This document shows, piece after piece, positions 2,573 through 13,893 of a stretch of 14,365 nt of DNA (the first letter of the stretch is position 1; each line of letters starts with the position of its first letter). Origin of the DNA: a virus. Taxonomy: Duplodnaviria > Heunggongvirae > Uroviricota > Caudoviricetes. The position numbers and the translations under genes are program-made. The DNA is taken from the IMG/VR virus record IMGVR_UViG_3300037420_000666; one strand, given 5' to 3'. Under the pieces are notes generated by a model, which was given only the letters and a program-made list of their open reading frames with translations, was not told the DNA's origin and searched no databases.

Positions 2573-3820
2573 TTATGCGGCGAGGGCGGCAGCCCACATG
2601 TCGGGCTGCGTGGCGCCGTTCTGGTAGACGATCTCGGGCAGCACGGTGTCGGCGGTGGGCTCGTCGCCTTCCCAGCCGTCCGGCCACGTCTCGGCGGCGA
2701 TCAGCTCGCGGATGCGCGCCTCTTCCTTGGCGTTGATCAGGCTGATCTCGGGCCGGCGCAGGGCGCGCGCCGCGGCGTTGCACTCGGCCTGGATGCCCAG
2801 GACGCGCTCCAGCGCCATGGAGCGGGCCTCCAGCGTCAGCGGGCCCATGCGCTGCGGGTTCTTGGCGATCGCGCCCGACTTCAGGCGCTCGGCGCCGGCC
2901 TTCTTCAGGCGGTGCTGCGGTTCGCGCAGCTCACGCCACAGCCGCTTCAGCCCGCGCAGCGGCGCCAGGTACTGCCAGTGCGGCAGGGCCAGCACCGTCT
3001 CCAGCGCCTTCTCCTCCTGGGCCAGCGGGCAGCCGATGCAGCCTGTGCGCGCGTTGATCTCCTCGGCCTCGTCGCCGCCGTAGGCGTCCGCGATGGCGGC
3101 CGTGCTCCAGTCGCCGAACTCGGCCGCGGGCGCCCAGTGCTTCAGCCACTCCCACACGTGGCACACGCGCCAGTGCAGCAGCGGCGCGAGGGTTGCAATG
3201 CGGCCGCGCAGACCCTTCGCGTTCGGCAGCACCTGCTGGTACCAGCCTTGGCCGCACTCGGCGCCATCCTTGCTGCAGCTCATTTCGATGCGCCGGTCAC
3301 GGATGGCGCTCTCGCCCTGGCGCACGCCGGTGATCATCAGGAAGTTGCCTTGCAGCTGCAGCGCGTCCAGGCGCTGCTCCAGCGCGTGCTGCATCGGGTC
3401 GATCTTGATCTGCCGCGTGCACCACCTCAGCGTGTTGTTGTTCGGCGGCGGCACACCGCGACCCAGGATGTAGACCATAAAGCGCTTGTCCATGGGCGCA
3501 CGCACCACGTCCACCTGGATGCCGCGCTCGCGCAGCTCGTCCATGATCTGTTCGGCTGCGATGGCCAGCGGCGGCAGCTCCTGGCGCGTGTCGGCGTAGA
3601 AGATGGTCAGCGACTGCGGCGCCGCGATCTGCCCGGCGTCGATCAGCCAGCAGATCATGGTGAGCGTTGCGCTGCTGTCCTTGCCGCCTGACCAGGCAAT
3701 GCCCCAGTGCGGATGGTCCGGGCCGTAGGCCTGCAGCGACTGAATCGTGAGCTCGATGCTCTCGGTCATCTGCAGGCGCTGCGCGGTGGCGTCGAAGAAG
3801 CTGCTCTGTATGCGGCTCAT
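2573..3820 (-). CDS. PP-loop ATP-pyrophosphatase / PAPS-reductase-like protein (DndC- or phage DUF3440-like)
   Basis: Start set at ATG 3820 (MSRIQSSFFD...) with GAGGGAAGGA upstream; the longer frame starts at GTG 3889. Contains the canonical PP-loop SGGKDS (WGIAWSGGKDSSATL) and a cysteine-containing C-terminal half (TGCIGCPL). A 14-nt gap to the next gene suggests one operon. Confidence 0.8.
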   Translation of the reverse strand: MSRIQSSFFDATAQRLQMTESIELTIQSLQAYGPDHPHWGIAWSGGKDSSATLTMICWLIDAGQIAAPQSLTIFYADTRQELPPLAIAAEQIMDELRERGIQVDVVRAPMDKRFMVYILGRGVPPPNNNTLRWCTRQIKIDPMQHALEQRLDALQLQGNFLMITGVRQGESAIRDRRIEMSCSKDGAECGQGWYQQVLPNAKGLRGRIATLAPLLHWRVCHVWEWLKHWAPAAEFGDWSTAAIADAYGGDEAEEINARTGCIGCPLAQEEKALETVLALPHWQYLAPLRGLKRLWRELREPQHRLKKAGAERLKSGAIAKNPQRMGPLTLEARSMALERVLGIQAECNAAARALRRPEISLINAKEEARIRELIAAETWPDGWEGDEPTADTVLPEIVYQNGATQPDMWAAALAA

Positions 3821-5245: not shown

Positions 5246-5566
5246 TCAGTACGGAACGGCCTCGGCCTCGATGCCGGCCGGCGTCTTGCCGCACTTGCAC
5301 GCTCCGCAGCCGGCGCACTTCTCGGCCAGGGCCTGGGCGTGCGCCTCTTCGGCGGCGATCTGCGCCACGGTCTCAGCGGGCAGGCCCAGGCGCTCGGCGG
5401 CGCGCTGGATTGCGTGGTCGGTGTTGCCGTGCACCTGGCGCATGGTCTCGACGGTGCTGGCTACGGTCGCGCGGGAAACGATGGGATCGGGCATATCGGT
5501 CTCGGTTGTGGTCATGCGGTGCCGGGCGCTGGCCCGGCGGGTTTTGAACTTGGAGCGGTGGGGCAT
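5246..5566 (-). CDS. Hypothetical small Cys-rich protein
   Basis: 106-aa ORF whose ATG overlaps the stop of the upstream gene (TGATG at 5564-5568). GC-rich third codon positions through the N-terminal extension. C-terminal cluster CAGCGACKCGK may bind metal. Internal ATG at 5515 is an alternative start. Confidence 0.5.
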   Translation of the reverse strand: MPHRSKFKTRRASARHRMTTTETDMPDPIVSRATVASTVETMRQVHGNTDHAIQRAAERLGLPAETVAQIAAEEAHAQALAEKCAGCGACKCGKTPAGIEAEAVPY

Positions 5567-6783
5567 CAGGCCGGCACGGCCTTGGCGGCACCCTCGGCCT
5601 CGGCGATGGCGGCGCGGGCCTCGACCATCTCGGGCGCGTGCTCGATCAGACCCTCTTCGTCGCTGTCGGCCATCGACGTCACCAGGGCGCGCAGCGCCTT
5701 CAGCAGCCGCGGGGCCGCATCGCGCAGGCGCTTGTCGGCTGCGGCGCGGGCTTCTTCCTCGCGCTGGCGGGCCGCGGCGGCTTCACGGGCCACGCGCTGC
5801 GCCTCGGCCAGCTCGGCGGCGGCCTTGCGCTCCTCGGCTTCGCGCGCCTCCCGTGCAATGCGGTCGGCCTCGGCGCGGGCTGCGGCGGCCTGGCGCTCTT
5901 GCTCGGCGAGGGCTTCGCGCTGGCGGCGCATCTCCGCTTCGTGGGCCTCGCGCTCGGCGCGCAGCTTCGCCTCGTGCTCGGCCCGCTCCTTGTCGCGCTT
6001 CAGGGCCGCAGCGATCTCCTCGGCCTCGCGCTGCTCGCGAGCCTTGCGCTCTTCCTCGGCGCGCGCGGCGGCGGCCTCCTCGTCGCGCTTCTTCTGCTCG
6101 GCGCGCAGCTTGGCCAGCTCGGCGCGCTCCGCGGCGAGGCGGGCGGCTTCGGCTTCGCGCTCCACCGCGGCAGCGTGCATGTCGCGCAGCTGCTTCAGCG
6201 TGTCGGCCTTTGCCTCCTCGGCCTTGCCGCGGTACTCCTCGAAGTCGTCGCCGATGGCAAGCGCCTCGATGTCCGCGATGTGCTGGGCGATCTGCTCGGC
6301 GGTGCAGCGCAGGGACGCCACCACGATGGCCTCGATGTCGTTGGCGATGCGGTCCTGGTGCGCCTTCACGCGCGCCGCCTCGGCCGCGGCCTTCGCCTGC
6401 TTCTCGGCTTCCTTGCGCTGCTCCTCAGCCTTGATCTGGGCGTCGTAGTGCTCTTCGCCAGCCAGCAGCTTCGCAGTGAGCTCGCCGGCAAAGCTGTCGA
6501 TGGCCTTGCCCAGGGCGAGCACCGGGGCCTTGGCGTCCTTGCGGGCCTTCTCGACAGCCAGGCGCGGCGTGCGCCAAGCGGCTCGGGCGGCGATGGCCGA
6601 CTTCATGCCGGCGGTGGTGCTGATCTCGGCGATCAGCACGTCCTTGGGGTGCTGCTTCTCCAGCTCGGCCAGGCCCGCGGCGATCTTGTCGAAGGCGCCC
6701 ACGTGCGTTTGCACGGTGGCGATGTTGGAGGCGATGCCGGCGACAGCGGCGGCGGCGGTGGTTTCTTGAGCGACGGTTTCCAT
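5566..6783 (-). CDS. Phage protein with a long E/R/K/A-rich charged helical repeat region
   Basis: Start set at ATG 6783 (METVAQETT...); the longer frame starts at GTG 6867 with no RBS and overlaps the exonuclease gene. The central ~200 aa are a near-continuous run of A/E/R/K (for example AEAARLAAERAELAKLRAEQKKRDEEAAAARAEEERKAREQREAEE), predicted coiled coil or single alpha helix. Confidence 0.7.
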   Translation of the reverse strand: METVAQETTAAAAVAGIASNIATVQTHVGAFDKIAAGLAELEKQHPKDVLIAEISTTAGMKSAIAARAAWRTPRLAVEKARKDAKAPVLALGKAIDSFAGELTAKLLAGEEHYDAQIKAEEQRKEAEKQAKAAAEAARVKAHQDRIANDIEAIVVASLRCTAEQIAQHIADIEALAIGDDFEEYRGKAEEAKADTLKQLRDMHAAAVEREAEAARLAAERAELAKLRAEQKKRDEEAAAARAEEERKAREQREAEEIAAALKRDKERAEHEAKLRAEREAHEAEMRRQREALAEQERQAAAARAEADRIAREAREAEERKAAAELAEAQRVAREAAAARQREEEARAAADKRLRDAAPRLLKALRALVTSMADSDEEGLIEHAPEMVEARAAIAEAEGAAKAVPA

Positions 6784-6811
6784 GTCCGTTTTCTCGGTCT
6801 GAAATGAGGGG

Positions 6812-7480
6812 TCAGGCGGCCAGCGGCATCGGGCGGCGCAGGGCGGCCTCGTGCTGGTCCACCACACGGCGGAAGTCCATCAGGTCGGACTCCAGGGCTT
6901 CGATTGCGTCGTCATCGCGGCGGATGCGCTGGATGAACAGGCTCTTGCCCACCGGTTCCAGCCAGGGGCAGAACACCACTAGGTCGCACCAGGCGCGGCC
7001 GGTGATCCAGAGTCCGCCCAGGATCTGGTCGCGGTACTCGTCGGCCGCGTGGGCCGGGTCCGTCCAGATCAGGCCCAGCTTGTCGCAAGCGGCCGGGCAC
7101 TTGATCTCGACCATGCCCACATCGCCCACGAAGCCGTCCGTGCTGTAGCCGAAGGCGCCGTCGTCGGTGAAGACGATGCCGGCCTCCATGGCCAGCGAGC
7201 CGGTGTGCTGCTCGTAGGCCTCGCGCGCTGCGGGCTCCAGCTCGGTGCCGCGCTTCATGGCCCACGTGACGAAGGTGTCATCCAGCGACGTGCCGCTGAT
7301 GCGCTCCATGGCCAGGGTCCATGCGTACTTGATGGCCTCGCTGCTGGGGTCGCCCGCCTTGCGGTCGCCGCTGGCGCGCTTCAGCTTCGAGCGGGCATCA
7401 CTGAAGCGGCTGGCGGTGATCACGCCGGCGCGCGCGGCCAGCCATTCCTGCGTGCCCTGTTGGACTTGAAGGAAGCGCAT
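6812..7480 (-). CDS. YqaJ-like viral recombinase-associated exonuclease (lambda Exo functional analogue)
   Basis: N-terminal QQGTQEWLAARAGVITASRFSDA is the hallmark YqaJ/PD-(D/E)XK exonuclease opening. ATG at 7480 lies 4 nt after the RecT stop, the classic RecT-exonuclease pair. Confidence 0.9.
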   Translation of the reverse strand: MRFLQVQQGTQEWLAARAGVITASRFSDARSKLKRASGDRKAGDPSSEAIKYAWTLAMERISGTSLDDTFVTWAMKRGTELEPAAREAYEQHTGSLAMEAGIVFTDDGAFGYSTDGFVGDVGMVEIKCPAACDKLGLIWTDPAHAADEYRDQILGGLWITGRAWCDLVVFCPWLEPVGKSLFIQRIRRDDDAIEALESDLMDFRRVVDQHEAALRRPMPLAA

Positions 7481-7483
7481 GGC

Positions 7484-8491
7484 TCAGGCCTCCAGCGCTT
7501 CGCCGCGCACCGCGATCAGCTTCTCCAGCCGCGTGCGCTCCTCGCCCTCGGGCAGCGTGGCCACGTCGTCGCCGATGAGCAACAACACCTGGGCGTCGCT
7601 GCAGCTGCCGATGCGCTGCTCCAACGCCACCACGTCCAGGCCCGGGGCAGCATCGGCGGCCGGCATGTCCACGGTGCGCGCAGCGTCGGCGTCGATCGCG
7701 GCTTGCTTCAGGCGCGGGTGGTGCTCGGCGAGGTGCTTGCGGTTGGCCGGGCCGGTGGACTTCCAGAATTCCTGGTACGCGGCCACGCCCTCGGCGGCGG
7801 CGTTCTCGGCGGCCTCCAGCAGGCCGGCGGGCATCTGCGGTGCTTCGGGCGCCTGCGGCTGCACGGTGTTGGCCGGGCCCATGTTCTTGGGTGGCGCGAT
7901 CTGCTCCAGCTCGTCGGGCGTGTAGATGCCCAGGATGGCGCCAGGCGTGTAGAGGCGGGCCCAGTTCTTGGCCTGCAGATATCCAAGCTGCTGTTTCGGG
8001 TTCGTCTTCCACAGCGGCGAATTCCTGGTCGTGACCGACTTCATGCACAGCCACTCGCCCCAGGTGATCTCCTGCTCGCCACGCAGCACCGCGCCCGCGC
8101 GGCACTCGACGGCTTCGCCGGTGCCCTTGAACTCGTACTTGAACGTGCCGTGGATCGCGCCGCTGGCCTGCACCACCGCGATGACCAGTTGCGCCTCGTA
8201 GCCCAGCGTGCCGTTGACCACGTGCGTCTTCTGGGCCACGGCGTAGGGGTTCATGCGCCACTGCGCGGCCTGCATCGCCACCGCCAGGCAGTCGCCCGTC
8301 TTGCCCTGCAGGTGCTTGGGCACGGTGATGGTGGCCTTGGCCATCTCCTGGGCCACCACGGCCAGGGCGTTCATGGTGGTGGCGTCCATCAGCAGGTCCA
8401 GCGCGCCAACGCGCGTCGGGCCTGCGGCCATGGCGGGCTGCTGCTCGATGGGGGCGGCCAGGGCCAGCGGTTGTTCGGTCATCGTGTTCAT
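7484..8491 (-). CDS. recT: RecT-family single-strand annealing protein
   Basis: 335-aa ORF. Motifs VPKHLQGKTGDCLAVAMQAAQWRMNPY...THVVNGTLGYEAQL...ECRAGAVLRGEQEITWGEWLCMKS fit the RecT/Red-beta family. ATG at 8491 preceded by GAGGA. Immediately upstream of the YqaJ exonuclease. Confidence 0.9.
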   Translation of the reverse strand: MNTMTEQPLALAAPIEQQPAMAAGPTRVGALDLLMDATTMNALAVVAQEMAKATITVPKHLQGKTGDCLAVAMQAAQWRMNPYAVAQKTHVVNGTLGYEAQLVIAVVQASGAIHGTFKYEFKGTGEAVECRAGAVLRGEQEITWGEWLCMKSVTTRNSPLWKTNPKQQLGYLQAKNWARLYTPGAILGIYTPDELEQIAPPKNMGPANTVQPQAPEAPQMPAGLLEAAENAAAEGVAAYQEFWKSTGPANRKHLAEHHPRLKQAAIDADAARTVDMPAADAAPGLDVVALEQRIGSCSDAQVLLLIGDDVATLPEGEERTRLEKLIAVRGEALEA

Positions 8492-9866: not shown

Positions 9867-10513
9867 CACTTGCCCTCCGCTGCGGCGCCGTCATCCATCG
9901 GGTCGAAGACGCTGCCGTACATCGCGCGGTGCATCTCGTTCGCGGCAGCAAACGGACTCCCTCCCGTTTCGCGCTGCTCCATGGCGATTGCCATGATGTC
10001 CATGCCCTTGATCTGCTCGCGCAGCGCTTGCACCTCTGCATTCAGCCGTTGGATCTCCGCGTCGCGCGGGTCCGCCTGCGCCACCGTGCCGCCGCCTTGC
10101 ACCTCCGCTGCAGCGATGGCCTTGTCCAGATCGTCGCGGGCGCCGTTCCGGCTGCTCAGCAGGGAGAAGTAGTTCGGAGCGTTGGGGCCCTGCAGCTCGC
10201 GGTTGTCCAGCGCGTCCTGTGCGTCCAGGAAGTCGGTCAGCGCCGCCACCACGTTCAGCAGCTCGTCGCGCTGCTCGCGCAACTTCTGCGCCTCGGCAGC
10301 CAGTGCCGGCGCAGACGCCACCAATTGCGCTCTCGCTTCATCCGCCGCGTCGTCTGCGCCGTCGCTGTGGCACATGAAGCAGACGGTGGTGTCGGCGTCG
10401 CGCATGACGTGGCGGCTCCACTGCATGTATGGGCGCGGGTCGCGCTCAATGAACCAGCGTTCTTGCTGGACTGCCTGCGCCGTCCCGGCGCTGGTGTTGG
10501 TTTGGTCGGCCAT
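9866..10513 (-). CDS. Hypothetical phage early protein
   Basis: 215 aa, ATG at 10513, 4 nt after the upstream stop. Has a CxxC-like pair (VCFMCHSDG) and an acidic, coiled-coil-like C-terminal half. No family recognised. Confidence 0.65.
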   Translation of the reverse strand: MADQTNTSAGTAQAVQQERWFIERDPRPYMQWSRHVMRDADTTVCFMCHSDGADDAADEARAQLVASAPALAAEAQKLREQRDELLNVVAALTDFLDAQDALDNRELQGPNAPNYFSLLSSRNGARDDLDKAIAAAEVQGGGTVAQADPRDAEIQRLNAEVQALREQIKGMDIMAIAMEQRETGGSPFAAANEMHRAMYGSVFDPMDDGAAAEGK

Positions 10514-10516
10514 GGC

Positions 10517-10780
10517 TCAGGCCCCCAGGCGAGCGATCAGCATGGCGTCGGCCATGGCGTAGGCGCGGCGGGCATCGTCAAGACGGCCCGCCGTCGTGCT
10601 GCTCTCGCCGCGCTGCTCCATGACCATCGGCAGCGCCGCGACCGCGAAGTAGTCGCGCAGCGTCATGCCGGCCTGCGCGTGGCTGTAAATCTGCGTCTCG
10701 TGCAGCGTGGCCGGGCGCGCGAACGCCGGCCCGCCGTCGTTGATCTGCTGCGCCGCCCCGGCGCGGGTGGTGTCTGCCAT
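10517..10780 (-). CDS. Hypothetical protein, first gene of the leftward early operon
   Basis: 87 aa, ATG at 10780 preceded by GGAGGA, about 30 bp downstream of the PL-like promoter and operators. Occupies the position lambda N holds, but no N-like arginine-rich motif was seen. Confidence 0.6.
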   Translation of the reverse strand: MADTTRAGAAQQINDGGPAFARPATLHETQIYSHAQAGMTLRDYFAVAALPMVMEQRGESSTTAGRLDDARRAYAMADAMLIARLGA

Positions 10781-10806
10781 GTGTCCTCCGTGGGGTTGAT
10801 GGAGGA

Positions 10807-10835
10807 ATGTTAGGCATAGCCTTACTTGCCGTCAA
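10807..10835 (-). promoter_or_regulatory. PL-like early-left promoter (candidate -35 TTGACG, 17-bp spacer, -10 TAACAT on the minus strand)
   Basis: Minus strand reads TTGACG (top 10830-10835), a 17-bp spacer, TAACAT (top 10807-10812), then GGAGGA and the ATG at 10780. Operator repeats lie in the spacer and just upstream of the -35. Confidence 0.45.
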
Positions 10836-10848
10836 TAGGCTGCGCCTA
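10808..10848. promoter_or_regulatory. OL-like operator pair for the CI-like repressor
   Basis: TGTTAGGCATAGCCTTA (10808-10824; inverted arms AGGC/GCCT around a 3-bp spacer) and the perfect 13-bp palindrome TAGGCTGCGCCTA (10836-10848), centres about 25 bp apart. The 17-mer recurs exactly at 12793-12809. Confidence 0.55.
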
Positions 10849-11006
10849 CTTTTTGTTTGGCGGCGCCTTATCTGCTCGATGTGAAAGGCCCGTCGGGTAG
10901 CGGGCGCAGGAGTGCTGTAGCGCGCCGCCGCACTGCGACGCGCGGCCTACTGCTTCACCGTCCACGCGCTGGCCCGCATTGCTGCGCAGCGCATTCCCCA
11001 GACGTG

Positions 11007-11028
11007 AAAAAGCCCGCACGAGGCGGGC
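11007..11028 (-). terminator. Intrinsic (rho-independent) terminator of the repressor/cargo transcript
   Basis: On the minus strand a GC stem GCCCGC(11023-11028)/GCGGGC(11012-11017) with a 5-nt loop is followed directly by UUUUU (top AAAAA 11007-11011). Lies about 30 nt downstream of the J-domain gene stop (11060) and upstream of the PL region. Confidence 0.55.
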
Positions 11029-11059
11029 GCTTGGCTTGGCAGTGCGGCGGCGGCAGTGC

Positions 11060-11590
11060 TTAGTTTCGTCCGATCCAGCGGATACCAAGCCAGGCCAAGC
11101 CCGAAAGCAATGGAAGCGACAAGTTCAGGGCCAGGAACCCGTTCTCGGTAAGGTTGTAGTCCCATCTCCAGATGACACCCCAGAGCTGCACAGCAACTAC
11201 CCACAGAATGCTGGCAACAATCCAGGCGCGTGTCCGTCGCCTGCACTGCTCGCGGATCGCCTTCAAGCGCACTTCTGGCTTGGCAGCCTCAAGCACCGAC
11301 AGCAGCTTGGCGTGCCCGCCTCCATCTGCATATCGAAGGTAAGCGTCGTACTTCTTGCGCCGCTCCGGGTCTCCGAGGGTGTGCAAGGCCTGCTGAGTGA
11401 GCGCATACCGGGCGGGCGCGTCCTTGCTGCCACAGCCCGTTTTTGGGTGGTAAGTGGCGCTGAAAAAGCTGTGCGCCATTTCTATGTAGTCTTGCGTGGC
11501 ATTCGGCTGTAAATCAAGAACTCGATAGAAATCAACGATTCCATCTGCCCTTTTGAACTCGTCTAATACACGCTGCGCATCCTCGTCCAT
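11060..11590 (-). CDS. Membrane-anchored J-domain (DnaJ-like) protein with HPK in place of HPD
   Basis: 176 aa. Residues about 20-85 align along the whole J-domain pattern (DFYRVLDLQPNATQDYIEMAHSFFSATYHPKTG...ALHTLGDPERRKKYDAYL versus DnaJ DYYEILGV...YHPDRN...AYEVLTDSQKRAAYDQYG). The tripeptide is HPK (codons CAC CCA AAA, top 11441-11449). Two C-terminal hydrophobic segments (AWIVASILWVVAVQLWGVIW, FLALNLSLPLLSGLAWLGIRWI). Lower GC than the flanks; in the repressor-cargo region. Confidence 0.75.
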   Translation of the reverse strand: MDEDAQRVLDEFKRADGIVDFYRVLDLQPNATQDYIEMAHSFFSATYHPKTGCGSKDAPARYALTQQALHTLGDPERRKKYDAYLRYADGGGHAKLLSVLEAAKPEVRLKAIREQCRRRTRAWIVASILWVVAVQLWGVIWRWDYNLTENGFLALNLSLPLLSGLAWLGIRWIGRN

Positions 11591-11645
11591 ACCGCTCCCT
11601 TGTGATTATATTTAGCGAATTAACCTGAAATCAGTTTCGAATTTC

Positions 11646-11657
11646 TCGAATATTCGA
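11646..11657. promoter_or_regulatory. Perfect 12-bp palindrome TCGAATATTCGA with adjacent TTCGAA, upstream of the J-domain gene
   Basis: Located in the AT-rich 78-bp spacer between the 77-aa ORF and the J-domain gene. A perfect TATAAT (minus strand, top 11605-11610) lies 14 nt upstream of that gene's ATG. Candidate regulator-binding site and internal promoter. Confidence 0.35.
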
Positions 11658-11668
11658 TTGCGAGTGAG

Positions 11669-11902
11669 TCAGCGTATTCGCTGAGCCAATTCATCATCAA
11701 GCGCAGCTAACATCCCGCGAGCAAATGTTGGATTCCGATGGGCTTCGCCGCTGGTATTTACAACGAACCCTCGTTGTTTTGTCATTGCGGCGTATGCGAC
11801 CCCTATCACTTCGCCTCGTTCCGCTCGCTCCAGAAGGTTTCTTAAGTCGGCCACCACGTCGTGTGGGGCCTCCTCCCGAACGAGGCGAAACGGAGGCTTC
11901 AT
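11669..11902 (-). CDS. Hypothetical 77-aa protein coupled to the repressor gene
   Basis: ATG overlaps the repressor stop (ATGA at 11899-11902) and is preceded by AAGGAAA. Sequence MKPPFRLVREEAPHDVVADLRNLLERAERGEVIGVAYAAMTKQRGFVVNTSGEAHRNPTFARGMLAALDDELAQRIR; no family recognised. Lower GC than the flanks. Confidence 0.55.
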   Translation of the reverse strand: MKPPFRLVREEAPHDVVADLRNLLERAERGEVIGVAYAAMTKQRGFVVNTSGEAHRNPTFARGMLAALDDELAQRIR

Positions 11903-12744
11903 GACTTCTTTTCCTTGCCGCTTTCATCGGTACGGATGATCCGCTCCATGCCCGGCATGGGGCGGTCGCTGAAGTACTTACCGCCGGGCGGCTGTTCCTT
12001 CTGAACCGGAACAGCGCGCGCGGTGCGCCCGATCCTTTCCAAGAATCGAGGCAATTCCTCCCGTGGTTTTATTTTTCGTGCCGGCACAGGGTGCGGCACG
12101 TAATAGACCCAAGTTACTTCGGTGGGGCTGAAACTTAAAACTTCCGGCGAGTTATAACTTCCAAATCTCCACCCGCCGCGCCGGCTCAGCAGTCGCTTGA
12201 GCATAGTCGAACCATCGGCCAAGCGCACAAGAACGTCATCCTCAAGATCGGGGTCGCTGCTTGGCTCGACTAGCGCATATTCGTTTGGCATGTATTTGGG
12301 GATCATCGAATCTCCGACGACCCGGCAGACAAACGCGTAATCGTCGCTGCTGAGCACCTCGGCAAATTCGGTGGCCTCCGAAAGCCAGTTGTCATCGAAT
12401 ATCCGCTCCGGCATTCCTCCCTGGCAGGTGCCGCACACGTAGACCGGGCGGACGCTGCGCGCCGGGAGTGTCTGAGGCGGAGCACTCTCTGTCGCAACCA
12501 TGACTGACAGGCCAGCACTGACCGTGCCCGGGTAGGCCGTCAGGCCCCAATGCTCCGGCCCAACCACATTTGCAAACAGAGCCCAGAGCCCCGGCAGCTT
12601 CTCCTTCGAGATGGTTCCGCGGTTCACCCAGTCCTGGATCGTCGGCGGCTTGACCCCGAAATGCTCCGCCAGGGCTTTCTTGGTGATGCCCTTTTTTAGT
12701 CTGGCCGCCTCGATGGCTTGCCCTAGTTCGATCCCGGTAAGCAT
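11899..12744 (-). CDS. CI/LexA-like prophage repressor (N-terminal XRE-type HTH, C-terminal S24 peptidase domain)
   Basis: 281 aa. N-terminal HTH (LGQAIEAARLKKGITKKALAEHFGVKPPTIQDWVNRG) and an S24 autoproteolysis domain with Ser and Lys motifs (VVGDSMIPKYMPNEYALV ... DGSTMLKRL). Carries an unusual ~60-aa C-terminal tail. Divergent from a Cro-like gene; AGGA lies 10 nt upstream of the ATG. Confidence 0.9.
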   Translation of the reverse strand: MLTGIELGQAIEAARLKKGITKKALAEHFGVKPPTIQDWVNRGTISKEKLPGLWALFANVVGPEHWGLTAYPGTVSAGLSVMVATESAPPQTLPARSVRPVYVCGTCQGGMPERIFDDNWLSEATEFAEVLSSDDYAFVCRVVGDSMIPKYMPNEYALVEPSSDPDLEDDVLVRLADGSTMLKRLLSRRGGWRFGSYNSPEVLSFSPTEVTWVYYVPHPVPARKIKPREELPRFLERIGRTARAVPVQKEQPPGGKYFSDRPMPGMERIIRTDESGKEKKS

Positions 12745-12760
12745 CGCCTAATGGTCCTGA

Positions 12761-12813
12761 TAAGGCAGTGAGTAGGCAATTCCTTGCAGAATTGTTAGGC
12801 ATAGCCTTATCAT
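12761..12813. promoter_or_regulatory. OR-like operator/promoter region between the repressor and Cro-like genes
   Basis: Contains TGTTAGGCATAGCCTTA (12793-12809, identical to 10808-10824), an imperfect copy TAGGCAATTCCT (12773-12784) and half-site TAAGGC (12761-12766). Candidate rightward promoter: -35 TTGCAG (12784-12789), -10 TATCAT (12808-13), which places the transcript start at or next to the cro ATG (12820). Confidence 0.5.
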
Positions 12814-12819
12814 GGCGCC

Positions 12820-13119
12820 ATGAACGATCCCATCAACGACCTCGGCGGTCCGACTGCGGTGGCAAAGATGCTGTGCATCAAGGCCCCGTCCGTCGTCCAG
12901 TGGAAAGGCCGCATTCCGGCTGAACGGCGCGTGGACCTGGAGCGCGTCGCCTACCCCAAGTTCTGGGTTGAGCGCGCCGGCGACGACGTGCGCTGGCAGC
13001 GCGTGCCCGATCCCGAGTGGCCGCATCCCGATGGCCGCCCTTGTATCGACGTTGCCGCGATGCGCCCCCCGCTCCCCCAAGCCGCCGCCGCAGCTCCCCA
13101 GGCTGTGGCTGCGAGCTGA
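12820..13119 (+). CDS. Cro/YdaS-like HTH regulator
   Basis: 99 aa. DLGGPTAVAKMLCIKAPSVVQWKGRIPAERRVDLERV matches the YdaS/Cro-type HTH pattern (...QW..rG.iPaeR...iE..). Divergent from the repressor across the operator region. No Shine-Dalgarno upstream, so possibly leaderless. Confidence 0.75.
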   Translation: MNDPINDLGGPTAVAKMLCIKAPSVVQWKGRIPAERRVDLERVAYPKFWVERAGDDVRWQRVPDPEWPHPDGRPCIDVAAMRPPLPQAAAAAPQAVAAS

Positions 13120-13161
13120 CGCGCTCGCCCAGGCCCCACACCAAAAAGCAGGACCGAGAGG

Positions 13162-13416
13162 ATGCAAATGCAACCGGAGGACATGCCGTCCATGAGCTCT
13201 GACCTTTGCGATTTCAGAGGGAAGCTGACAGTCGAGGCCATGGCCATGCTGGAAGGCGAGGCCGCGGTTACCGGCGACGACAAGTCGGTGATCGCCCGCA
13301 GGGTGCTTCACGCCTGGGCCATGAGAAAGATGCATGCCCACAAGATCGCGCAACGCTGGCTTGCCGTCGAGGGACATGCGACGCCCGAACGGGGCGGTTC
13401 GGGGAGCCTGGCGTAA
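13162..13416 (+). CDS. Hypothetical early protein (CII-position)
   Basis: 84 aa, ATG at 13162 preceded by GAGAGGA. Its stop overlaps the next start (TAATG at 13414-13418). No family recognised. Confidence 0.55.
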   Translation: MQMQPEDMPSMSSDLCDFRGKLTVEAMAMLEGEAAVTGDDKSVIARRVLHAWAMRKMHAHKIAQRWLAVEGHATPERGGSGSLA

Positions 13417-13865
13417 TGGCCCGGCCGCGCATTACCCCGGCCTACAAGGCCCGGCGCCTGGAGCGCGAGCGCGCAGCCGAGTACCGCTTCGACGTGGATG
13501 CCTGGACAAAGGCCGCCGCCGAGACGCTGAGCATTCCGGCAGAGCACGTCGGGCTGACGGCCAGCGAGATCGAGGCGCTACCCGTGCCGGCTGCCCGCAG
13601 TGGTGTCCAACTCGTGTGCGCCGGCCCGGGCTGCGAGGAGTGCTTCAGCGCAGTGGCATCGGCGATTCGACAGCCATCTCGTACATGTGGGTCACCGTGC
13701 CCCAGCCCTGCAGCGGGTGAAGCCACTGCGACTCCAGCTGGATCGCGACCGCCGGGCTGTTTGCTCCATCTGGCTCCTCGCGCCACTCCAGTACCGCAAG
13801 AGGCGGCTGACCCGGCTCAAGCAGCAGATCCACGTTGTAGTGGGCCGTTTGGCCCGCGTGGGTGA
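13416..13865 (+). CDS. Hypothetical protein, 3' end uncertain
   Basis: ATG at 13416 is coupled to the previous stop. Codons up to about 13640 show strong G/C at third positions and a protein-like product (MARPRITPAYKARRLERERAAEYRFDVDAWTKAAAETLSIPAEHVGLTASEIEALPVPAA...). Beyond about 13645 third-position GC collapses and the product becomes P/A/G low complexity, so the true C-terminus is probably earlier or a frameshift is present. Confidence 0.35.
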   Translation: MARPRITPAYKARRLERERAAEYRFDVDAWTKAAAETLSIPAEHVGLTASEIEALPVPAARSGVQLVCAGPGCEECFSAVASAIRQPSRTCGSPCPSPAAGEATATPAGSRPPGCLLHLAPRATPVPQEAADPAQAADPRCSGPFGPRG

Positions 13866-13893
13866 GAAGTATGCGAACCTTCTTGACTTCCAT
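13645..13893 (-). CDS. Hypothetical 82-aa protein (convergent)
   Basis: ATG at 13893 is preceded by GGGAGGG at ideal spacing. Third codon positions are almost all G/C and the product is protein-like (MEVKKVRILLTHAGQTAHYNVDLLLEPGQPPLAVLEWREEPDGANSPAVAIQLESQW...). Confidence 0.5.
   Translation of the reverse strand: MEVKKVRILLTHAGQTAHYNVDLLLEPGQPPLAVLEWREEPDGANSPAVAIQLESQWLHPLQGWGTVTHMYEMAVESPMPLR

What the first reader, a model, noticed from the sequence alone, without database searches (positions are those of the whole stretch)
11060..12750. Lower-GC island spanning the repressor and its cargo
Hand counts of sample 60-nt blocks give about 53-62% GC across 11100-12120 against about 75-78% in the recombination region (for example 5581-5640). 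The J-domain gene, the 77-aa gene, the AT-rich spacer between them and the repressor gene all share the shift. This suggests the immunity module was acquired or exchanged as a mosaic unit, or is under different constraints.
Basis: seen in the sequence. Interest (0 to 1): 0.4.

Follow-up and report, generated by a model that had tools for sequence, protein, structure and literature searches.

The report
Low-GC mosaic immunity operon of prophage
The low-GC patch is real: it is the repressor operon of a lambda-like temperate phage, assembled by recombination from pieces shared with otherwise unrelated phages, which is a well-known pattern in phage evolution, though two of its genes have unknown function.

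Summary
Observation confirmed. Window 11060-12750 is 57.2% GC against 69.5% elsewhere. The maximum-likelihood segment is 11061-12880 (LRT p about 2e-24; 0 of 20000 block permutations). The shift is at synonymous sites: GC3 is 0.67, 0.51 and 0.70 for the J-like, 77-aa and CI genes, the three lowest of 35 genes; GC2 is unchanged.

The island is the lysogeny operon cI-77aa-J of a lambdoid/P22-like phage from a metagenome. It lies between an identical 15-mer operator at PL (10810-10824) and PR (12795-12809), and ends in an intrinsic terminator.

Comparisons locate mosaic junctions at about 10750 and about 13070-13094. L034 shares only OL/PL, the terminator, CI, OR and cro. L075 shares the gene right of cro but has an unrelated cro. 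L007 shares only the J gene plus terminator, the CI S24 domain and RecT.

Homologous CI and 77-aa genes in three phages of equal GC have normal GC3 (0.81-0.91), so the low GC is not a constraint of these families. A small dip (median -2.6 points, 55 of 60 loci) is generic; this one (-12.2) exceeds all 60.

The "J domain" has HPK instead of HPD and sits in a hypervariable cargo slot. This is a known kind of feature and of modest interest. No donor was identified.

The parts
10748..10755 (.). Left mosaic junction (approximate). Similarity to L034 ends here, just inside the start of the 87-aa early-left gene.
   Evidence: blastn match 10755-10871 and the 60-nt identity profile. Contigs L004 and L005 both end at 10778.
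10807..10835 (-). PL-like sigma-70 promoter TTGACG-17-TAACAT. It drives the early-left operon: GGAGG at 10785-10789, ATG of the 87-aa gene at 10780.
   Evidence: The only promoter-like site reported in 10500-13500. Hexamer coordinates.
10810..10824 (.). OL operator candidate TTAGGCATAGCCTTA (pseudo-palindrome AGGC-N3-GCCT). It lies between the -35 and -10 of PL.
   Evidence: The 15-mer occurs exactly twice in the window; 0 of 200 shuffles give 2 matches. It is present at the homologous PL and OR of L034 and in no other unrelated locus among the 56 loci fetched by then; the other matches are contigs of this same phage.
10856..10870 (.). Weaker second operator-like site TTTGGCGGCGCCTTA. Its half-sites match 10 of 12 positions of the strong 15-mer.
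   Evidence: Repeat family D2; coordinates. Inference only.
11012..11028 (-). Intrinsic terminator GCCCGC-CTCGT-GCGGGC followed by TTTTT, starting 31 nt after the J-like gene stop. It ends the cI-77aa-J operon.
   Evidence: Terminator scan. 97% identical to 31 nt in L034. An equivalent hairpin plus T-run follows the J homolog in L007.
11060..11590 (-). 176-aa membrane protein. It has an N-terminal J-like domain (res 20-82) with HPK at res 48-50 (window 11441-11449), and two C-terminal TM helices (res ~122-141 and ~152-170). GC3 0.67. It is cargo in a variable slot.
   Evidence: Pfam DnaJ 41.3 bits against a cutoff of 27.8. PDB J-domain hits. HPK in both members. Hydropathy. Only one close relative among 5.8e9 proteins. 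Absent from L034 and L074-L077.
11591..11668 (.). AT-rich spacer (38.5% GC). On the - strand it carries TATAAT (11610-11605), AAGGGAG before the J ATG, and a 12-bp palindrome TCGAATATTCGA (11646-11657).
   Evidence: Not conserved in L007, where the gap is 35 nt.
11669..11902 (-). 77-aa protein of a conserved, uncharacterised family (motif GEAHRNPTFARGM). Its ATG overlaps the CI stop codon (ATGA). GC3 0.51.
   Evidence: 151 homolog clusters; alignment A1; 49 viral and 16 genomic loci. The 4-nt overlap with the upstream ORF recurs in many loci. No Pfam or PADLOC family. No informative fold match.
11899..12744 (-). 281-aa CI repressor. HTH at res ~11-49, Ala-Gly at res 77-78, S24 domain with GDSM (res 144-147) and MLKR (res 181-184), plus a ~75-aa C-terminal extension. 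GC3 0.70.
   Evidence: Pfam Peptidase_S24 4e-11 and HTH_3 5e-6; PHROG 4 transcriptional repressor 2e-25. Motif positions.
12784..12813 (+). PR candidate TTGCAG-18-TATCAT with OR operator TTAGGCATAGCCTTA (12795-12809) between the hexamers. The -10 ends 6 nt before the cro ATG.
   Evidence: The operator sits in the same position as in PL. The promoter is below the scan threshold (3 of 6 in the -35), so it is an inference.
12820..13119 (+). cro (99 aa, P22_Cro family), divergent from cI. GC 63% in the first 50 codons and 76% in the rest.
   Evidence: Pfam P22_Cro 1.4e-8; composition; 78% aa identity to L034 Cro.
13070..13094 (.). Right mosaic junction at the 3' end of cro. The window resembles L034 to the left of it and L075 to the right.
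   Evidence: Identity profiles and blastn: L034 match 12542-13063, L075 match 13094-13407 at 77%.

Best explanation
The island is the lysogeny-maintenance (immunity) operon of a lambdoid/P22-like temperate phage that probably infects a high-GC betaproteobacterium. The operon is cI (HTH + S24 autocleavage repressor), then a translationally coupled 77-aa gene, then a membrane J-like protein, and it ends at an intrinsic terminator. The same 15-bp operator flanks it, sitting between the -35 and -10 of both PL and PR, so one repressor can shut both early promoters (inferred). Its GC is low at synonymous sites because this stretch was assembled by recombination from a different sequence pool than the rest of the genome, and has not drifted to the composition of its present genome. 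At least three sub-modules have separate histories: cro-OR-CI(HTH) together with OL/PL; the CI C-terminal domain and the 77-aa gene; and the J-like gene with its terminator. The J-like gene is moron-like cargo in a slot that holds a different gene in almost every related phage. Shown here: the composition shift, the gene identities, the repeated operator, the terminator, the junctions, and the variability of the slot. Inferred: repressor binding, co-transcription, a lower-GC origin, and what the cargo does.
For: - Composition: 57.2% against 69.5% GC. GC3 is 0.51-0.70 against 0.74-0.95, with GC2 unchanged.
- Gene identities: S24+HTH repressor, P22_Cro, DnaJ-domain hit.
- Operator: the 15-mer occurs only at PL and PR. 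It is conserved at the same two places in L034, which shares the CI HTH. Apart from contigs of this same phage, it is absent from all other loci fetched by then.
- Promoter and terminator: PL promoter and terminator. The terminator is conserved in L034 and L007.
- Junctions: L034 shares only ~10750-10918, the terminator, and 11692-13070 in graded fashion; its flanks are unrelated. L075 shares 13094-13407 (77% nt) and 6046-7836 but has an unrelated cro. L007 shares J plus terminator (74% nt), CI residues 86-233 (70% aa) and RecT, with a different HTH, Cro and operators.
- Control against a family constraint: CI and 77-aa homologs in L074, L075 and L077 (background 68-69% GC) have GC3 of 0.81-0.91.
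- The 77-aa gene is an outlier: across 60 loci its GC3 tracks background GC (r = 0.80). Expected 0.86, observed 0.51, z = -4.4.
- Host range of the family: hosts span about 51-69% GC, mostly Burkholderiales and Nitrosomonadales.
- Cargo slot: heterogeneous in 52 loci.
- Precedent: morons are described as having deviating GC and their own terminator (PMC3594210). Immunity segments are exchangeable among lambdoid phages (PMC9119081).
Against: - No donor or near-identical copy in a lower-GC genome was found. The closest 77-aa relatives (68-69% aa) lie in 63-65% GC phages with GC3 0.70-0.88. The closest CI is only 57% identical.
- L034, with the same immunity type, also has a deep dip (-10.7 points) although its shared segments are only ~74% identical to the window. 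If both have sat in high-GC hosts since they diverged, some force other than recency may be keeping GC low.
- A small dip is generic to these modules (55 of 60 loci).
- Only one strong operator per side was found, whereas lambda has three.
- PR and PRM are weak matches and are not supported by the scan.
Confidence: 0.7

Rival explanations
1. The low GC is kept by selection on lysogen-expressed regulatory genes rather than by recent acquisition. Candidate pressures are rare or AT-ending codons that keep expression low, AT-rich DNA for promoter and operator function, or binding by an H-NS/MvaT-like silencer.
For: The repressor module is lower in GC than the rest of its own locus in 55 of 60 loci (median -2.6 points, Wilcoxon 6e-10). 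L034, with the same immunity type, keeps a -10.7 point dip despite ~26% nucleotide divergence. The intergenic spacer and OR are the most AT-rich parts, at 38.5% and 49%.
Against: CI and 77-aa homologs in three phages with the same background GC have normal GC3 of 0.81-0.91. The window's dip exceeds all 60 comparison loci. Its 77-aa gene lies 4.4 SD below the family trend. The effect is in coding GC3, not only in regulatory DNA.
Confidence: 0.2
2. The island is an artefact of metagenome assembly, a chimeric join of two phages.
For: The source is a metagenome contig. Several contigs break near the left junction.
Against: Five further contigs (L002-L005, L057), recovered separately from the JGI, Logan and IMG/VR collections and all but one from samples other than the window's, are 100% identical wherever they overlap the window. 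L003 crosses both junctions, L004 the right junction, and L002 the left junction with the left two-thirds of the island; L057 lies wholly left of the island. The gene order is a coherent lambdoid layout, with matched operators on both sides.
Confidence: 0.02
3. The dip is a chance fluctuation or a by-product of amino-acid composition.
For: Gene-to-gene GC varies in the window. One example is the 77-78% peak caused by an Ala/Glu/Arg-rich protein.
Against: LRT p about 2e-24. 0 of 20000 permutations. GC2 is unchanged while GC3 falls by 0.2-0.4. These are the three lowest GC3 values of 35 genes.
Confidence: 0.01

Closest known systems
Immunity (imm) region of lambdoid phages: lambda OL/PL - rexB - rexA - cI - OR - cro, and the imm434/imm21 replacements
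   Same: A divergent cI/cro pair. The same operator occurs at the left and right early promoters. Lysogen-expressed accessory genes lie downstream of cI and end at a terminator before OL/PL. The segment is exchangeable between otherwise different phages (PMC9119081).
   Different: Only one strong operator per side could be recognised, whereas lambda has three. The accessory genes are unrelated to rexAB and have no PADLOC hit. The first accessory gene overlaps the cI stop codon by 4 nt. CI has a ~75-aa C-terminal extension.
Morons of HK97, HK022 and other prophages (for example HK97 gp15)
   Same: The J-like gene is an extra gene absent from related phages at the same position. Its GC deviates, and a factor-independent terminator follows it (definition from PMC3594210).
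   Different: No convincing promoter of its own. The TATAAT at 11610-11605 lies only 14 nt from the ATG and would cut the Shine-Dalgarno sequence. The gene is more likely read through from the cI promoter.
Phage J-domain protein Rki of RB43, and bacterial membrane J-proteins such as DjlA
   Same: There is a recognisable J-domain sequence (Pfam above the gathering score). As with DjlA, it is joined to a membrane anchor (DjlA comparison from general knowledge).
   Different: The HPD tripeptide needed for functional interaction with Hsp70 (PMC3486835) is HPK here, and HPS, DPK, GPS or LSK in distant relatives. The anchor is C-terminal with two TM helices, whereas DjlA has an N-terminal TM (general knowledge). 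The gene sits in a temperate phage's lysogeny operon, not in a lytic phage like RB43.

Membership tests
Lambdoid immunity region | CI-type repressor with an N-terminal HTH and a C-terminal S24 (LexA-like) autocleavage domain | tested here: met
   Pfam Peptidase_S24 4.3e-11 and HTH_3 5.3e-6; PHROG 4 at 1.7e-25. GDSM at res 144-147, MLKR at 181-184, Ala-Gly at 77-78.
Lambdoid immunity region | Divergently transcribed cro-type gene across a short operator region | tested here: met
   P22_Cro 1.4e-8. The gene at 12820-13119 (+) lies 75 nt from the cI start.
Lambdoid immunity region | The same operator sequence overlaps both early promoters (OL/PL and OR/PR) | tested here: met
   An identical 15-mer at 10810-10824 and 12795-12809, with 0 of 200 shuffles giving two matches. 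It lies between the -35 and -10 at both sites. It co-occurs with the homologous HTH in L034 only. Only one strong site per side.
Lambdoid immunity region | The repressor binds these operators and confers immunity | not testable with these tools
   Needs EMSA or ChIP and superinfection assays.
Lambdoid immunity region | The segment is exchanged as a block between otherwise different phages | tested here: met
   L034 shares only this block. L075 shares the flanks but not cro. Junctions lie at ~10750 and 13070-13094.
Moron | An extra gene absent at the same position in related phages | tested here: met
   The J-like gene is absent from L034, L074, L075 and L077. The slot holds heterogeneous ORFs in 52 loci.
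Moron | [quoted passage not shown] | tested here: met
   57.1% GC and GC3 0.67, against ~70% and ~0.88. The L007 homolog has GC3 0.64 in a 67% GC background.
Moron | Own terminator | tested here: met
   Hairpin plus T-run at 11028..11012. It is conserved together with the gene in L007.
Moron | Own promoter, active in the repressed prophage | tested here: inconclusive
   No site passed the promoter scan. A lone TATAAT lies 14 nt from the ATG, with no -35. Expression was not tested.
J-domain proteins (Hsp70 co-chaperones) | Sequence match to the J domain | tested here: met
   Pfam DnaJ 41.3 bits against a cutoff of 27.8, covering profile positions 1-63 of 63. 30 PDB J-domain chains match at E <= 0.01.
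J-domain proteins (Hsp70 co-chaperones) | Conserved His-Pro-Asp tripeptide between helices II and III | tested here: not met
   HPK in the window protein and in its L007 homolog. HPS, DPK, GPS and LSK in distant relatives. It should therefore be called J-like, not filed as a functional JDP.
J-domain proteins (Hsp70 co-chaperones) | Stimulates DnaK ATPase | not testable with these tools
   Needs biochemistry.
Known anti-phage defence systems (PADLOC, including RexAB) | Profile match of the cargo proteins to a defence-system component | tested here: not met
   No hit for the J-like protein. Only a 0.015 Cas2-like chance hit for the 77-aa protein.

The most novel reading that the evidence does not exclude
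The 77-aa protein could be an unrecognised, widespread component of the lysogeny switch. It forms more than 150 clusters, its start often overlaps the stop of repressors of several different types, and it has neither a family nor a known fold. It might, for example, be a stoichiometric partner that modulates repressor stability or induction. The J-like HPK membrane protein could be a prophage-encoded decoy or membrane tether for DnaK. Alternatively it could be a two-TM effector that excludes superinfecting phages. Nothing here excludes these readings, and nothing tests them.
Probability: 0.12. Interest if true: 0.55.

Novelty: new member of a known kind. Interest (0 to 1): 0.25.

Why it matters
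Compositionally deviant, exchangeable immunity regions and morons are textbook features of lambdoid phages, so the island itself teaches little that is new. What it does offer:

- A clean, well-delimited example in an uncultivated high-GC phage, with both junctions mapped to within about 25 nt.
- A testable operator/repressor pair.
- Two uncharacterised lysogen-expressed genes worth a look. One is a conserved small protein that is repeatedly coupled to phage repressors. The other is a degenerate J-like membrane protein occupying a cargo hotspot.

Tried and rejected
- GenBank phages: megablast and blastn of the window and the island found only a PAPS-reductase match (~80%) and a 130-160-nt CI fragment, so they were no use for breakpoints.
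- Left-flank 215-aa protein: scans of viral and metagenome contigs found only the same phage (L057) or nothing, so no phage with the same left flank and a different immunity region was obtained.
- PADLOC on the cargo and on 52 slot neighbours gave nothing meaningful.
- Rfam and tRNA scans found nothing.
- Contexts of distant J-like and 2-TM relatives were too short to interpret.
- Looking for a lower-GC donor through the closest CI and 77-aa relatives found none.
- An own promoter for the J gene was considered and judged unconvincing.
- Assembly chimera and amino-acid-composition explanations were rejected.
Full report
**1. Observation**

A sliding GC profile shows one sustained dip. Windows between about 10950 and 12900 fall to 0.48-0.63, against about 0.65-0.78 elsewhere.
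- Positions 11060-12750 are 57.2% GC against 69.5% for the rest of the window.
- The best two-breakpoint segment is 11061-12880, at 56.9%.
- A likelihood-ratio test gives chi2 = 113.6, p about 2e-24.
- The three 500-nt island blocks lie 4.6-6.8 SD below 23 outside blocks.
- None of 20000 permutations of 100-nt blocks produces a 1.7-kb stretch this low.

It lies in an Ala/Glu/Arg-rich coiled-coil segment of a 405-aa protein. The real contrast is therefore about 12 points, not about 20.

**2. Nature of the shift**

Per-gene codon-position counts show a synonymous-site effect.
- GC3 is 0.67 for the J-like gene, 0.51 for the 77-aa gene and 0.70 for CI.
- The other 32 genes on 20.8 kb of the source contig have GC3 of 0.74-0.95.
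- These three are the lowest of 35 genes (exact P = 1.5e-4).
- GC2 is unchanged, at 0.44-0.48.

cro and the two genes to its right are intermediate, with GC3 of 0.76-0.79. The spacer 11591-11668 is 38.5% GC and the cI-cro intergenic region is 49%. No Rfam family or tRNA lies in the window.

**3. What the genes are**

The window is part of a 45-kb metagenome contig (JGI 3300037313). Its layout is lambdoid/P22-like: integrase, excisionase-like, PAPS reductase, YqaJ exonuclease, RecT, then J-like, 77-aa and CI facing Cro, then DnaB, terminase and a portal-type head-tail connector (Pfam Head-tail_con).

- **CI (11899-12744, minus strand).** It has an HTH plus a Peptidase_S24 domain. It carries GDSM, a downstream Lys and an Ala-Gly site, consistent with RecA-stimulated autocleavage. 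That last point is inferred from the LexA/CI family.
- **Cro (12820-13119, plus strand).** It matches P22_Cro.
- **The 176-aa protein.** It matches the DnaJ domain above Pfam's cutoff and matches PDB J domains. It has two C-terminal hydrophobic helices.
- **The 77-aa protein.** It has no Pfam, PHROG or PADLOC family.

**4. Regulatory anatomy**

The 15-mer TTAGGCATAGCCTTA occurs exactly twice in the window, at 10810-10824 and 12795-12809. None of 200 shuffles gives two matches.
- The left copy lies between the -35 and -10 of the only promoter-like site the scan found. That site is TTGACG-17-TAACAT on the minus strand, at 10835..10807. It sits upstream of the early-left 87-aa gene.
- The right copy lies between TTGCAG and TATCAT, just upstream of the cro ATG. 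This PR assignment is below the scan threshold, so it is an inference.

A GC-rich hairpin with a T-run on the minus strand (11028..11012) starts 31 nt after the J-like gene's stop codon.

The CI stop codon and the 77-aa start codon overlap as ATGA.

The most economical reading is one lysogenic transcript, cI-77aa-J, ending at that terminator. The same repressor would occlude PL and PR. This reading is inferred.

**5. Comparison with other phages**

*L034.* This phage comes from a sister sample of the same project. It shares only the following with the window:
- cro, OR and the CI HTH (window 13070-12541, 68-83% nt identity);
- the CI S24 domain (57-60% nt);
- the 77-aa gene (49% aa);
- the terminator (97% over 31 nt);
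- OL/PL (10918-10748, 55-83% nt).

L034 has no J-like gene and its flanks are unrelated. The degenerate operator pattern TWAGGCNNNGCCTWA occurs in L034 exactly at its OR and its PL. Apart from contigs of the window's own phage, it occurs in none of the other loci fetched by then (56 in all). That co-variation with the HTH supports the operator assignment.

*L075.* This phage is 77% identical from 13094 to 13407, which covers the last codons of cro and the 82-aa gene. It is also about 70% identical over 6046-7836. Its cro is unrelated and its CI is only 50% identical.

Together, L034 and L075 place the right junction at 13070-13094. The left junction against L034 is at about 10750.

*L007.* This phage shares the J-like gene plus terminator (74% nt), CI residues 86-233 (70% aa) and RecT. 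It has a different HTH, a different Cro and its own repeated operators.

The immunity block is therefore exchangeable and is itself mosaic.

**6. Constraint or history?**

I compared the repressor/77-aa module with the rest of its own locus in 60 loci that encode a 77-aa homolog.
- The module is lower in GC in 55 of 60 loci (median -2.6 points, Wilcoxon 6e-10). A small dip is therefore generic.
- The window's value is -12.2 points, beyond all 60. The next lowest is L034 at -10.7.
- Across these loci the GC3 of the 77-aa gene tracks background GC (r = 0.80). The expected value at 69.5% is 0.86 and the observed value is 0.51 (z = -4.4).

Three phages with 68-69% GC backgrounds (L074, L075, L077) carry CI homologs (~50% aa) and 77-aa homologs. 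Those genes have normal GC3 of 0.81-0.91. Only the small cargo gene that follows them is lower, at 0.70-0.82.

Low GC3 is therefore not an intrinsic property of these families. That favours history (exchange with a different sequence pool) over constraint.

Two caveats apply.
- No donor was found. The closest 77-aa relatives (68-69% aa) sit in 63-65% GC phages. The closest CI other than the window's own sequence is 57% identical.
- L034 keeps its dip despite about 26% nucleotide divergence, which leaves room for a selective contribution.

**7. The cargo**

*The 77-aa family.* It has at least 151 clusters.
- It is found in phage-sized contigs and in prophages. Hosts are mainly Burkholderiales, Nitrosomonadales and some Gammaproteobacteria.
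- Its start often overlaps the stop of an upstream ORF. About half of those upstream ORFs have a recognisable HTH and a few have an S24 domain.
- Its AlphaFold model (pLDDT 77; helix, two strands, helices) has no informative structural match.

*The slot after it.* It holds a different gene in nearly every locus. Adhesin_E, BamE-like, HIRAN and Zn-ribbon each appear once and the rest have no family. Many of these ORFs have hydrophobic segments.

*The J-like protein.*
- It has one close relative among 5.8 billion proteins.
- Both copies carry HPK where J domains carry HPD.
- Distant relatives from an exhaustive search have HPS, DPK, GPS or LSK at that position.
- An H-to-Q change in the HPD tripeptide abolishes functional J-domain/Hsp70 interaction (PMC3486835). 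That the Asp is also required is general knowledge and was not tested here.
- I therefore call the protein J-like and do not file it as a co-chaperone.
- Its C-terminal two-TM module (LWGxIWRWD...PLL...RWI) also occurs with other N-termini.

It meets three of the moron criteria: it is an extra gene, its GC deviates, and it has its own terminator (PMC3594210). A promoter of its own is not convincing.

**8. Artefact check**

Five further contigs (L002-L005, L057) were recovered separately from the JGI, Logan and IMG/VR collections, and all but one come from samples other than the window's. All are 100% identical to the window wherever they overlap it.
- L003 and L004 span the whole island. L003 crosses both junctions and L004 the right one.
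- L002 covers the left junction and the left two-thirds of the island.
- L005 covers only the J-like gene and the 5' part of the 77-aa gene, and ends at the left junction.
- L057 lies wholly to the left of the island.

The join is real.

**9. Verdict**

It is the immunity operon of a lambdoid temperate phage, a recombinational mosaic with moron-like cargo. This is a known kind of feature with new members. The main interpretation (mosaic exchange) is supported, with two corrections: it is not a single unit, and the exchangeable block is wider than the low-GC stretch. Interest is modest. The two uncharacterised lysogen-expressed proteins are the only parts that might repay experiments.

Noticed in passing
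window 11441-11449 (res 48-50 of the 176-aa protein): The J domain has HPK instead of the canonical HPD, in both known members. Distant relatives have HPS, DPK, GPS or LSK, so this is a degenerate J-like family.
   Followed up: partly
window 11063-11250 (res ~113-175 of the 176-aa protein): The C-terminal two-TM module (LWGxIWRWD...PLL...RWI) recurs at 44-53% identity in proteins with unrelated N-termini, such as P0250, P0254, P0257-P0259, P0278, P0315 and P0370. It has no Pfam family.
   Followed up: partly
window 11899-11902: The CI stop and the 77-aa start overlap as ATGA. The same 4-nt overlap with the upstream ORF recurs in roughly half of 49 viral loci, although the upstream repressors are of different types.
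   Followed up: partly
window 10336-10778: Contig ends cluster at the left mosaic junction: L004 and L005 both end at 10778, L003 at 10685 and L057 at 10336. This may reflect co-existing variants that differ to the left of the immunity region.
   Followed up: no
window 12808-12822 and 12742-12760: The candidate PR -10 (TATCAT) ends 6 nt before the cro ATG, and no Shine-Dalgarno sequence precedes either cro or cI. Both mRNAs may be leaderless.
   Followed up: no
window 2651-3798: The PAPS-reductase/DndC-like gene is the only part of the window with a GenBank phage match. It is 79-82% nt identical to Pseudomonas aeruginosa phages such as D14A, Dobby and phiC725A. This is a separate mosaic patch.
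   Followed up: no
window 5566-6783: The 405-aa protein has a long Ala/Glu/Arg-rich coiled-coil region. That region causes the window's GC maximum (77-78%) and an AT skew down to -0.66.
   Followed up: partly
window 13645-13893 (- strand): An 82-aa gene lies antisense within the rightward early operon. Its GC3 is 0.76 and it has no family. It may be another inserted gene.
   Followed up: no
window 11899-12129 (CI res 206-281): CI has a ~75-aa C-terminal extension beyond the S24 domain. It is partly shared with L034's CI, and its function is unknown.
   Followed up: no
window 11646-11657: A perfect 12-bp palindrome TCGAATATTCGA sits in the AT-rich spacer between the 77-aa and J-like genes. It is not conserved in L007.
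   Followed up: no
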